This document shows positions 21,001 through 24,000 of a stretch of 64,000 nt of DNA, one piece after another. Source of the stretch: Ylistrum balloti. Lineage: Eukaryota. Each line of letters begins with the position of its first letter. Position 1 is the stretch's first letter. Made by a program: the position numbers. The stretch spans positions 496,001 to 560,000 of the forward strand of contig NW_026782621.1 of assembly GCF_031769215.1 (NCBI RefSeq), written 5' to 3'.

Positions 21001-24000
21001 CGAGGAGGATTTGGAGGTGAACGAGGACGGTAAGATTTCTTGCTTTGGATTAATAATACACACTTGACCGTTGAATTTTGTTCGATCAACACAAAAACTG
21101 ACATCACAAGTGTCATGATTGATAAACACAAAATCTTCAGTAAAATTTCATAACCAGTCAAAATAGATATACTGACCATTGTTTCAGATTTTGTTTATCT
21201 AGAAAAACTGTTTATCATCTGAAAATTTAGGTTTGTAAAAAATAGTTTGTTTCCTGATCATTTGATTAACTTGATCTACACTTAATGATTTGTAGTGGAA
21301 GAGGACGTGGTGGTGGTAGTGGTGGGCCTATGAGAGGACGAGGAGGAGGTGGTCGTGGTAGAGGATCAGACCGATACTCCAGTGACAGTCGTCCCCTACC
21401 CCCTCCAGAATATGACCCATACTACAGAAGACCAGCACCATATGATTATTATGATAGGCCCTATGCAGATCGACCACGATCAGATGATAGACGTCCCCCT
21501 CCTCCTCCAGAGGACCGTTACCTGAGGGATAGATATCACCCTTATGACAGAAGACCACCACCCCCTGACCCCTATGACAGGCCGTATGAGCGACCAAGAG
21601 CCCCACCAGCTGATCCCTACAGGAGGCCACCACCAGATTATTATAGTAGACCCAGGTAAACACAGTAACAACTTACTTGATTTTCAAGTTTGTTGGACAA
21701 TATTACGTTCATATTTCATTCGAGCCTTTCTTGTTTAAAGGGAAAAACAACTTGGACAAGGCAGAAATGAGATTTGTATTAAGGTGTAATTCATTTGAAT
21801 ATTACATGGAAACTTCATTAAATATTGTTTCATAATATGAAGTATCTATGTATATATGAGACTTTGAACTTGCATGCTGCGTTATGTATATGAATCCCAC
21901 TTGTGTGTATAGTTCTCATGCAATGTTGATGTAGCCAAGTTTCAAAGTGTTTGACCCTTATTTTATGTTGTGTTTTTGAGTTTTTCAACTTTGTTGCTTT
22001 TCACCCAAAATCTTAATAACAGACCATATAAGTGTACTATTAAGAGACTAATGTACTCCGAAAGGTAATTGATTTTTCCTGAAAACTTATTTTACATAAT
22101 ATAAATTGTGTAATTTTTAATGTCCAAGTTCAATATCCTGTGAAAAAATTTTCATGCATATTAATTTCATTTGAAATTGTGTAAAAATAAGAGTGAGTAG
22201 GGAGCAAAACATTACATCTGTACATAACATAAATATAAATGTATTACGATAATGTAAAAAACTAATGGATAAAATTATTCTTAATATATCGTCATAAATA
22301 GATATTTTTATAAGCAAAGTCAGGTACAAGACGATTTCATAGGATTTTCAATTGTCTAGACAATTTGTATCACTAATGTCTTGAAAGATGTAAGATGATT
22401 TCGTAAGATTTTCAATTGTGAGATAATAACAATTTTAAGATGAAAGTGGAAAGAAAAAGGTAAAAGATGGAATAATAGTTTGGTGTATTATCCAGAGCGT
22501 AAAAGTGGAAAGTAAATAGTTTCCATCGGATAAAGACAAAAAATATCCATCTATTGACTAGGAATGTAAATAAAGCTGTTGGATTACAATTAGATAAATT
22601 TTATTTACACTCGTTTTAAGTGTTGTCATGTCAAAAGAAATCTTGCTATTTTGACTGCACAAAATCTCATCAGTTGTCAAATTTGAAAAGATGCAAAAAT
22701 CACTCACCTTTTCAATTATGGAAGAATTTTGTTATTATTTGATTTTATACCCCGACTTAAGTGAGGAGTCTGTAACACTTTGACTTGCTCATGTGGCTGG
22801 ATTCTTGTTTCAGTAGTTTACCCGAATTATTATTTGAATTACAACATTACAGCGTGAGGTTTAGGAGAAGTTTTTTTTCACTAAAACAATAATTAATTCT
22901 CTATTTTTATTGTGACTAGCTTTACCTTATTGTAAGAATACATGATCATTGAGACAATTTGTTAGAAATAGTTTCCACATGTTCATGTGTAATTCACCTT
23001 TCTCTTCGATAAACTGGTGCCATAGTGAATTTGTGAATTATCATTTCAAGTTACTCTGAAATCTTTTGCATGAGGATGGATGAAAAATCTAAGATCGCCT
23101 CAATTTTAGTGTGAAAATATTTCACTGGATCGGTTGCTAGGCTTCCATAATATGCATACAGAATCAAATGTAATACAGGGTATTTTATTCTGAACAGCAT
23201 TGAACCTTTTAGACCAGCAAAGAGATTTCACCTTGGTTTTTCCTCTCCAAGAAGAGTTCTTCATACTAAATCAAAAGAAGTTAAAAAGAGATTCTGTTCA
23301 CATATAGATGTAAATGTAAATCATGTGTTAGTCTATTGTTTAAAGTAATGAAAACAAATTAGGTCTTCGAAAAAGGCTTAGAAAATTAAACTTTGCTAAT
23401 CTGTAAAGCATTGCAAAATTGAAATGTTTTTGAAATCAATAACTTGTGTGTGAATTAAGCTATATTCTTCAAACAGGTACCCACAAGATGACCCGTATTA
23501 CCCAGAGGCGAGGTGAGACATGCATATTGTAATTATTGACATTTTTTTCTTCACCTGTAACTATTGAAAATTAACCAAAAAGGTAAATTTCCATGAATTT
23601 TGATCTGAACAGTTCCATAGATTAGCATTACTGCTTTCTAAAACAGCAAATCTCAGTAGAAGTCAGTTATCTTTAGTGCACAGTTTTTATTTTTACTATT
23701 TGCAGCTGTTTAATTGCTTTTGCAAATTAGGAGTTAAGTAGTGGATGTGAAATAAAGTGGTTAAATGGTTCATCAAAGTACAAGGAAATTTACTGAACTC
23801 ATTGTATAGTGACTGGGTCTAAAAGGATACAGAGCCGTTGATATAAAGGAACTGGGCATTGTAGAAGGTTTGAATAGTGATGTTTTAAAATTGAGTGATG
23901 TTTCCATTTAGGTACCGGTATGATGACACATATTACCTTGAGGCCAGGTGAGAATTTTTAATGCCCATTATCATGGTGTCTGACAATAACCAGAATCTTC

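What the first reader, a model, noticed from the sequence alone, without database searches (positions are those of the whole stretch)
23477..23947. Tandemly duplicated 36-nt symmetric microexons in the RBM4-like gene
Two 36-nt exons 400 bp apart are 27/36 identical. Both are phase 2-2 with a gtgaga donor, encoding (R)YPQDDPYYPEA and (R)YRYDDTYYLEA. Either, both or neither can be included without a frameshift, giving mutually exclusive or combinatorial tuning of Tyr content in the low-complexity tail of a splicing-regulator-family protein. The duplication is directly visible; its regulation is inference.
Basis: partly seen in the sequence, partly recalled or inferred. Interest (0 to 1): 0.65.

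Follow-up and report, generated by a model that had tools for sequence, protein, structure and literature searches.

The report
Duplicated 36-nt cassette exons, scallop RNA-binding gene
Two neighbouring 36-base exons in a scallop RNA-binding-protein gene are old copies of each other; one is used optionally in a related scallop and the other is unproven, an ordinary example of tandem exon duplication in a disordered, tyrosine-rich protein tail.

Summary
Exons 23477-23512 (A) and 23912-23947 (B) are 27/36 identical, and 35/44 with the ag acceptor and gtgaga donor. About 0.002 such matches are expected by chance in the window. No third copy exists, and the flanking intron is essentially unrelated.

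The gene has seven coding exons. All five larger exon peptides are exact substrings of Ylistrum balloti "RNA-binding protein 4.1-like isoform X2" (289 aa), which skips both small exons. The Mizuhopecten X3 and Argopecten X4 models also lack both. Pecten maximus X2 (299 aa) carries the exon A peptide YPQDDPYYPEA exactly, at the predicted junction. So A is an annotated optional exon and "neither" is an annotated isoform.

Exon B appears in 0 of 126 stored proteins. Its use is inferred only from its intact splice signals, frame and length. Strict mutual exclusion is not supported. The protein shares only one lark/RBM4-type RRM with RBM4: it has no second RRM and no zinc knuckle.

Verdict: a real tandem exon duplication and a new member of a known kind. 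The effect on tail behaviour is inference. Interest is modest.

The parts
20293..20415 (+). Coding exon 1 from the ATG: first part of the RRM ([10 protein letters not shown]...NYGFV), donor gtgagt
   Evidence: Sequence read and translated. Pfam RRM_1 positions 1-44 of 70, E 2.7e-06. Exact substring of P0008.
20665..20748 (+). Coding exon 2: rest of the RRM (HMANEQEARMAITELDGTTVKGNRIRVE)
   Evidence: RRM_1 positions 46-70 of 70, E 0.0066, below the gathering score on its own. Exact substring of P0008.
20974..21029 (+). Coding exon 3 (56 nt): LSTGTSKGGRGGFGGERG plus 2 bases
   Evidence: The peptide is an exact substring of P0008 and P0009.
21296..21655 (+). Coding exon 4 (360 nt): RGG stretch, then the Tyr/Pro/Arg/Asp-rich tail (16 Tyr, 26 Arg, 30 Pro). 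Ends AG|gtaaac.
   Evidence: Exact substring of P0008. No Pfam family.
23477..23512 (+). Cassette exon A, 36 nt: (R)YPQDDPYYPEA(R), acceptor caaacag|, donor |gtgaga
   Evidence: The peptide is present exactly, at this junction, in Pecten maximus isoform X2 (P0009). It is absent from P0008, P0005 and P0010.
23513..23911 (+). 399-nt intron between A and B
   Evidence: No structure beyond shuffles when 23440-23990 is folded (z = +0.32). No significant similarity to the intron upstream of A (p = 0.45). Weak 33-nt similarity to the intron downstream of B (p = 0.017).
23912..23947 (+). Candidate cassette exon B, 36 nt: (R)YRYDDTYYLEA(R), acceptor ccatttag|, donor |gtgaga. A tandem paralogue of A.
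   Evidence: 27/36 identical to A. Found in 0 of 126 stored proteins. Its use is inferred only.
26486..26732 (+). Last coding exon: (R)YAPEERAEAPP...QSFLQTEPIFF, stop TGA at 26730-26732
   Evidence: 91% identical to residues 211-291 of P0005, E 4e-39. Exact substring of P0008.

Best explanation
The gene encodes a scallop single-RRM protein. It has a lark/RBM4-type RRM, an RGG stretch, a long Tyr/Pro/Arg/Asp-rich disordered tail, and a conserved C-terminal ..QSxLQTxPIFF end.

One 36-nt exon in the tail was duplicated in tandem long ago. Both copies kept their acceptor, an identical gtgaga donor, their length and their frame, while the surrounding intron diverged to background.

Both copies most likely act as independent, optional cassette exons, not as a mutually exclusive pair. 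Each inserts a 12-residue module, Y-x-x-D-D-x-Y-Y-x-E-A-R, between exon 4 and the last exon. Exon A adds 3 Tyr and a net charge of about -2. Exon B adds 4 Tyr and about -1. The tail already has 25 Tyr.

By analogy with optional Tyr-rich exons of hnRNP-type proteins, inclusion would raise the number of Tyr/Arg contact points in the disordered tail. That would shift self-association and partner binding.

Shown: the duplication; the gene structure; optional use of A in annotated models; existence of the skip-both form. Inferred: use of B; independence of the two choices; any effect on the protein's behaviour.
For: - Duplication: 35/44 identity bounded by the splice signals. About 0.002 expected by chance. 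No third copy.
- Flanks, ungapped: 35/100 and 29/100 identical against 0.289 expected, p = 0.11 and 0.53. Gapped local score is not above shuffles upstream, p = 0.45.
- Gene model: 5 of 5 larger exon peptides are exact substrings of Y. balloti isoform X2, P0008.
- Exon A is real and optional. Its 11-residue peptide is exact in P. maximus isoform X2, between ..YYSRPR and YAPEERAEA... It is absent at that junction in P0008, P0005 and P0010.
- Constraint on B: all 8 splice-signal bases are identical to A. The 9 differences fall in only 5 of 11 codons (P = 0.048 for random placement). Of the 7 codons with a conserved residue, 6 are also identical at the synonymous base.
- Under random decay with 9 substitutions in 44 nt, the 8 splice-signal bases survive in 13% of trials. 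They survive together with an open frame in 7%.
- No enforcement of exclusivity: 399-nt intron, GT-AG on both, 36 nt each. These exclude the three mechanisms listed in PMC5740500 (passages). No RNA structure.
- Analogy: hnRNPDL isoforms that lack or keep Arg-rich and Tyr-rich disordered regions differ in phase separation, and hnRNPD exon 7 is an optional Tyr-rich segment of about 50 residues (PMC6996132, abstract and passages).
- Mytilus models of the same family differ by a roughly 44-residue Y/R/D-rich tail segment.
Against: - No protein containing exon B was seen: 0 of 4 pectinid cluster representatives and 0 of 126 stored proteins.
- Searches restricted to the junction region found only those four clusters among 20 candidates. 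They found no shorter fragment: 3 candidates, none scoring.
- The statistics for selection on B are weak (P about 0.05 to 0.13). A short, decaying duplicate is not excluded.
- The strong identity at synonymous sites could also mean a younger duplication or gene conversion, not constraint.
- The database models are automatic predictions. I saw no RNA reads.
- The change in Tyr number is small (+12% and +16%). No assay links it to any property.
Confidence: 0.55

Rival explanations
1. Only exon A is functional. B is a non-functional or rarely spliced duplicate (pseudo-exon) that has not yet lost its splice signals.
For: B is in 0 of 126 stored proteins, while A is in 1. A random-decay simulation leaves all 8 splice-signal bases intact in 13% of trials, and also an open frame in 7%. 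So survival by luck is not excluded. B replaces three Pro of A with R, T and L.
Against: The similarity stops at the splice signals, while the flanks are at background. That is what selection on an exon gives. A duplication of exactly exon plus signals would be an odd accident. The differences cluster in 5 codons, leaving the Y..DD.YY.EA pattern intact. B's donor (CAG|gtgaga) and acceptor tract (12 of 20 pyrimidines) are no weaker than those of A. Representatives of 90% clusters hide other isoforms, so absence from them is weak evidence.
Confidence: 0.3
2. A and B are a true mutually exclusive pair: one and only one is included in each mRNA.
For: Adjacent homologous exons of equal length and phase are the standard search signature for mutually exclusive exons (PMC5740500 passages). 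An A-only isoform exists.
Against: Skip-both models exist: P0008, 289 aa, and P0005, 291 aa. The intron is 399 nt, so no steric block. Both introns are GT-AG. Both exons are divisible by three, so joint inclusion or skipping causes no frameshift. There is no stable RNA structure: z = +0.32, and 61 of 100 shuffles fold at least as well.
Confidence: 0.05
3. The likeness is not a duplication. It is convergence from the repetitive DPYY/RPY composition of the tail, or chance.
For: Exon 4 holds similar short motifs (EYDPYY, YDYYDRPY).
Against: Identity is at the nucleotide level, including 6 of 7 synonymous sites of conserved residues and both splice signals. No part of exon 4, the last exon or the rest of the window reaches 22/36 to either exon. 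The chance expectation is 0.0018.
Confidence: 0.03

Closest known systems
Optional Tyr-rich disordered-region exons of hnRNP-type RNA-binding proteins (hnRNPDL isoforms DL1-3; hnRNPD exon 7)
   Same: An optional coding exon lies inside a Tyr-rich, Arg-containing disordered tail of an RRM protein. Isoforms with none, one or more segments are possible. The expected effect is on multivalent contacts (PMC6996132, abstract and passages).
   Different: The segments here are 12 residues, not about 50 or more. There are two paralogous copies in tandem. The protein is a mollusc single-RRM lark/RBM4 relative. No biochemical data exist. The wider claim about alternative exons in GY-rich regions (Gueroussov 2017) was seen only as cited in PMC6996132; the paper itself is not held.
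Tandem exon duplication giving homologous alternative exons (mutually exclusive exon clusters)
   Same: Adjacent exons of identical length and phase with significant sequence similarity. These are the same criteria used to predict such clusters (PMC5740500 passages; PMC9741552 abstract and passages).
   Different: The skip-both isoform is annotated, and none of the enforcing mechanisms applies. These behave as cassette exons, not as substitution exons. They lie in a disordered tail, not a folded domain.
RBM4 / lark family
   Same: The RRM carries the same [17 protein letters not shown] core. Lark and RBM4 proteins match at 47-60% identity over about a quarter of the query. NCBI's automatic name is 'RNA-binding protein 4.1-like'.
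   Different: One RRM instead of two, and no CCHC zinc knuckle. The tail and the C-terminal QSxLQTxPIFF end are shared with other mollusc proteins. Among the stored proteins no insect or vertebrate lark/RBM4 protein ends in this motif.
Neuronal microexon programme (Srrm4/eMIC-dependent, 3-27 nt). Definition and motif are recalled; no call supports them.
   Same: Very short, frame-preserving, optional exons in disordered or surface regions of regulatory proteins.
   Different: 36 nt exceeds the recalled 27-nt limit. There is no TGC within 40 nt upstream of either acceptor (0 and 0). Tissue pattern is unknown.

Membership tests
Tandem exon duplication | Neighbouring exons with the same length and phase and similarity beyond chance | tested here: met
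   36 nt each, same phase, 27/36 identity (35/44 with signals). Expected by chance 0.0018. No other copy in the window.
Mutually exclusive exon pair | Exactly one of the two exons in every transcript | tested here: not met
   The database models P0008 (Y. balloti X2) and P0005 (M. yessoensis X3) join exon 4 directly to the last exon. These are model-level evidence, not reads.
Mutually exclusive exon pair | An enforcing mechanism: steric block (<50 nt donor to branch point), U2/U12 incompatibility, or frameshift on joint inclusion or skipping | tested here: not met
   399-nt intron, both introns GT-AG, both exons 36 nt. Criteria are from PMC5740500 passages. Competing RNA structure has no thermodynamic support, z = +0.32. 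No comparative test was possible.
Alternative cassette exon | The exon is present in some and absent from other transcripts or models of the same gene or orthologue | tested here: met
   For A only, and across species: present in P0009, absent from P0008, P0005 and P0010. Within-species isoforms could not be seen. For B: not testable with what was reachable.
RBM4 / lark | Two N-terminal RRMs | tested here: not met
   One RRM_1 stretch in P0008 and in P0009, against two stretches in lark P0021. Window exons 1 and 2 cover RRM_1 positions 1-44 and 46-70 once.
RBM4 / lark | CCHC zinc knuckle after the RRMs | tested here: not met
   No zf-CCHC in P0008 or P0009. It is present in P0021 at E 5.5e-06.
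RBM4 / lark | RRM sequence closest to lark/RBM4 RRM1 | tested here: met
   Named lark, RBM4 and RBM14 proteins are the non-mollusc hits, at 47-60% identity over 23-30% of the query. No tree was made.
Srrm4/eMIC-type neuronal microexons | Length of 27 nt or less and a UGC motif just upstream of the acceptor (both recalled) | tested here: not met
   36 nt. 0 TGC in positions -42..-3 of either exon.
Optional Tyr-rich IDR exons of RNA-binding proteins | Inclusion changes self-assembly or phase behaviour | not testable with these tools
   Only composition could be counted: A +3 Tyr and B +4 Tyr on 25 in the tail.

The most novel reading that the evidence does not exclude
A and B are both used and independently regulated. 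That would give a four-state dial (neither, A, B, both) on the Tyr/acidic valency of a mollusc-specific single-RRM lark/RBM4 offshoot. The near-complete identity of synonymous sites in the conserved codons, set against randomised introns, would reflect a shared exonic splicing signal kept in both copies. The pair would then be co-regulated by one factor, perhaps the protein itself. The isoform numbers at least leave room for more combinations: skip-both is X2 in Y. balloti, X3 in M. yessoensis and X4 in A. irradians, and A-only is X2 in P. maximus. The other isoforms could not be seen.
Probability: 0.2. Interest if true: 0.5.

Novelty: new member of a known kind. Interest (0 to 1): 0.3.

Why it matters
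If both exons are used, this is a compact natural test case for how very small, paralogous inserts tune a disordered Tyr/Arg-rich tail of an RNA-binding protein. There would be four isoforms differing by 12 or 24 residues, outside the vertebrate and insect models where such ideas were developed.

It also shows that the automatic name 'RBM4.1-like' hides a distinct mollusc family: one RRM, no zinc knuckle, and a conserved C-terminal end.

If B is unused, the locus is only a routine example of an exon duplicate on its way to decay.

Tried and rejected
Whether any annotated isoform holds B stayed unchecked.
- A search limited to residues 176-250 of P0009, around the exon A junction, found 4 proteins among 20 candidates. 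All four were the pectinid clusters already known. The same search among shorter proteins gave 3 candidates, none scoring.
- The one whole-library representative search, with the last exon alone, gave 3 hits at E <= 0.001. Only P0005 is a relative. P0006 was not fetched, and P0007 is an unrelated repetitive protein.
- Third copy, or origin from exon 4 or the last exon: nothing at >=22/36 anywhere in the window.
- RNA structure that could pair the exons: folding 23440-23990 gave z = +0.32. There are 84 inverted-repeat pairs in the 4.8-kb interval. They include 23583-23604/23772-23793, and 21803-21826/23887-23910 next to B's acceptor. This is AT-rich sequence, and with no other species to compare I give them no weight.
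- Rfam: 0 matches in the window.
- TGC motif upstream of the acceptors: none.
- Literature: 'RBM4' with 'scallop' gave 4 papers, none about this gene by their titles and abstracts. 'Ylistrum balloti' with 'genome' gave 14 papers; the 8 listed are mitogenome or unrelated papers. 'microexon' with 'tandem exon duplication' gave 7 papers, none describing a duplicated small-exon pair in an RNA-binding protein by the listing. So I found nothing in print on this pair in those three searches.
- PMC4390143 is not held. No supplements were opened.
- Cross-species DNA comparison was not possible.
The window was searched exon by exon. Full-length work used database proteins returned by the tools.

Full report
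**What is in the sequence**

Exon A is 23477-23512 and exon B is 23912-23947. They are 27/36 identical. With the preceding ag and the following gtgaga the identity is 35/44. They are separated by a 399-nt intron.

Both are read from the third base of a codon to the second base of a codon. They encode YPQDDPYYPEA and YRYDDTYYLEA. With the intron's base composition, the expected number of sites at >=27/36 over both strands of the window is 0.0018. A scan of both strands finds no further site at >=22/36 to either exon.

Similarity ends at the splice signals. Beyond them, 100 nt of flank is 35% identical upstream and 29% downstream, against 28.9% expected. A gapped local comparison of the flanks is not above shuffles upstream (p = 0.45) and only weakly above downstream (a 33-nt match, p = 0.017). 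The window holds no N.

**The gene**

Reading the + strand gives seven coding exons:

| Exon | Coordinates |
|---|---|
| 1 | 20293-20415 |
| 2 | 20665-20748 |
| 3 | 20974-21029 |
| 4 | 21296-21655 |
| A | 23477-23512 |
| B | 23912-23947 |
| last | 26486-26732 |

All introns are GT-AG. Exon 4 ends with AG. A and B each start with G and end with AG. The last exon starts with A. So every combination keeps the frame and an Arg codon at each junction.

I searched the window exon by exon and left out any joined, spliced model. Pfam places exon 1 on RRM_1 positions 1-44 and exon 2 on positions 46-70. It finds nothing in exon 4 or the last exon above threshold.

**Relatives**

The last exon alone, searched against the representative library, finds one true relative. 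This is P0005, at E 4e-39, 91% identity, residues 211-291 of 291.

A search with P0005 found 173 proteins at E <= 0.001 among 8000 scored candidates, with the best 120 listed. It names four scallop proteins:
- Mizuhopecten yessoensis 'RNA-binding protein 4.1-like isoform X3' (291 aa)
- Ylistrum balloti isoform X2 (289 aa, P0008)
- Pecten maximus isoform X2 (299 aa, P0009)
- Argopecten irradians 'probable splicing factor, arginine/serine-rich 6 isoform X4' (290 aa, P0010)

All five larger exon peptides of the window are exact substrings of P0008. So the window is Y. balloti or something indistinguishable at this gene. It is not human.

**What the relatives say about the two small exons**

P0008 and P0005 run ..PPDYYSRPR|YAPEERAEA.., that is, exon 4 joined directly to the last exon. 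P0010 likewise lacks both peptides. P0009 reads ..PPDYYSRPR|YPQDDPYYPEAR|YAPEERAEA... This is the exon A peptide, letter for letter, at the predicted place.

So exon A is a real, optional exon in annotated models, and the skip-both form is annotated too. These are automatic models; I saw no reads.

A loose pattern for the module hits P0009 only. Searches limited to the junction region of P0009 added nothing: 4 hits among 20 candidates, all four being the known scallop clusters, and no shorter fragment.

The database shows one representative per 90% cluster. Absence of B from what I saw is therefore weak evidence.

The isoform numbers show that more isoforms exist than I could see: skip-both is X2, X3 and X4 in three species, and A-only is X2 in P. 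maximus. What those other isoforms contain is unknown.

**Is B constrained?**

- All 8 splice-signal bases are the same as in A.
- The 9 differences fall in 5 of 11 codons (P = 0.048 under random placement). They change P>R, Q>Y, P>T and P>L, plus one silent change.
- The pattern Y..DD.YY.EA stays untouched.
- Of the 7 codons with a conserved residue, 6 are identical even at the silent base.

Against randomised flanks, this looks like selection on both copies, possibly including a nucleotide-level signal. The numbers are small, however. Random decay with 9 substitutions leaves the signals intact in 13% of trials, and also an open frame in 7%. A young short duplicate or gene conversion would also fit the silent-site identity.

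Within the 4.83-kb interval, only 4 segments meet a strict in-frame AG..GTRAG test. Two are A and B. The other two encode ILLLFDFIPRL and EYEWHV, which do not resemble the tail.

**Mutually exclusive or not**

The intron between the exons is 399 nt. Both introns are GT-AG, and both exons are divisible by three. These features exclude steric block, U2/U12 incompatibility and frameshift, the mechanisms listed in passages of PMC5740500.

Folding 23440-23990 gives z = +0.32, and 61 of 100 shuffles fold at least as well. Inverted repeats are plentiful in this AT-rich intron (84 pairs), and I could not test them by comparison. Together with the skip-both models, this makes cassette behaviour far more likely than strict exclusion.

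**What the protein is**

P0008 and P0009 each have one RRM_1 stretch and no zinc knuckle. A lark protein from the same hit list (P0021) has two RRM stretches and zf-CCHC. The RRM is lark/RBM4-like: 47-60% identity to named lark and RBM4 proteins over about a quarter of the query. The protein is 'RBM4-like' in that domain only.

The tail counts are 16 Tyr, 26 Arg and 30 Pro in exon 4, and 9 Tyr in the last exon. A adds 3 Tyr and B adds 4.

**How it most likely works**

Each exon adds a 12-residue Tyr- and acid-rich module to a disordered Tyr/Arg-rich tail. In hnRNPDL, isoforms with or without Arg-rich and Tyr-rich disordered regions differ in phase separation, nuclear complexes and shuttling, through Arg-Tyr contacts. 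hnRNPD exon 7 is an optional Tyr-rich segment of about 50 residues (PMC6996132, abstract and passages).

By that analogy, A and B would raise the valency of the tail in steps. This step is inference, and nothing here measures it. Mytilus models of the same family differ by a roughly 44-residue Y/R/D-rich segment of the tail. Optional tail segments may therefore be a habit of the family.

**Comparison and novelty**

This is a tandem exon duplication whose copies behave, as far as seen, as cassette exons in a disordered region. That is a known kind.

Three literature searches found nothing on this pair or this scallop gene (listings only). Exon A is already in an automatic annotation. The paralogy with B, and B itself, are not in anything I could see.

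At 36 nt, and with no TGC near the acceptors, the exons do not fit the neuronal microexon class as I recall its definition. The paper I tried for that definition is not held.

**Verdict**

The finding is a new member of a known kind, of modest interest. The decisive data are junction reads and the other annotated isoforms, neither of which could be reached here.

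Noticed in passing
window 26697-26729 (+): The protein ends in QSFLQTEPIFF. A C-terminal ..QSxLQTxP[IL][FY]F end is shared by 23 stored database proteins plus the window's own last exon. They include named bivalves (scallops, Mercenaria, Crassostrea, Solemya) and gastropods (Haliotis, Littorina, Nucella, Batillaria, Patella, Babylonia, Pomacea), and some unnamed records. It looks like a conserved short motif defining a mollusc single-RRM family.
   Followed up: partly
window 20280-20318 (+): An out-of-frame ATG lies 13 nt upstream of the start codon, just after a likely acceptor (ttccag|). 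It opens a 12-codon frame that overlaps the main ATG and stops at TAA 20316-20318. It is a possible upstream ORF (read).
   Followed up: no
window 49923-50330 (-): An open frame of 135 aa matches Pfam PAXX (paralogue of XRCC4 and XLF) at E 4.5e-14, profile positions 68-192 of 194. It is a neighbouring DNA-repair gene.
   Followed up: partly
window 52426-52803 (+): An open frame with a weak reverse-transcriptase match: RVT_1, E 1.2e-06, 28.8 bits, just under the 29.6 cut-off. Probably a retroelement fragment.
   Followed up: partly
window 24314-24392 and 24589-24666: Two adjoining inverted-repeat pairs (42 nt at 81% and 39 nt at 74% complementary) form arms of about 80 nt, about 200 nt apart, in the intron downstream of exon B. 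They may be a small foldback or MITE-like element.
   Followed up: no
window 7177-7727; 9132-9445; 62556-62907; 55618-55753; 36461-36579: Tandem arrays: a 44-nt unit x 8.4 (open in three + frames), a 50-nt unit x 6.3 at 95% match, a 34-nt unit x 10.4, a 32/64-nt unit, and a 52-nt unit x 2.3.
   Followed up: no
proteins P0039, P0054, P0056, P0077, P0070 (Mytilus): Mytilus models of the same family differ by presence or absence of a roughly 44-residue Y/R/D-rich tail segment (GRDSYDRYGGGSRDRMPISRGYDSYDRRPPPMDDYRDR..), and by a divergent stretch in P0056. This suggests alternative splicing within the tail in another bivalve lineage.
   Followed up: partly
window 31500-31826, 32478-32744, 33689-34000 (-); 13479-13850 (-): The minus strand has open frames with coiled-coil-like (E/L/K/R-rich) sequence, and there is a very acidic exon-like frame. 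None matched a Pfam family among the three I scanned: 31500-31826, 33689-34000 and 13479-13850.
   Followed up: partly
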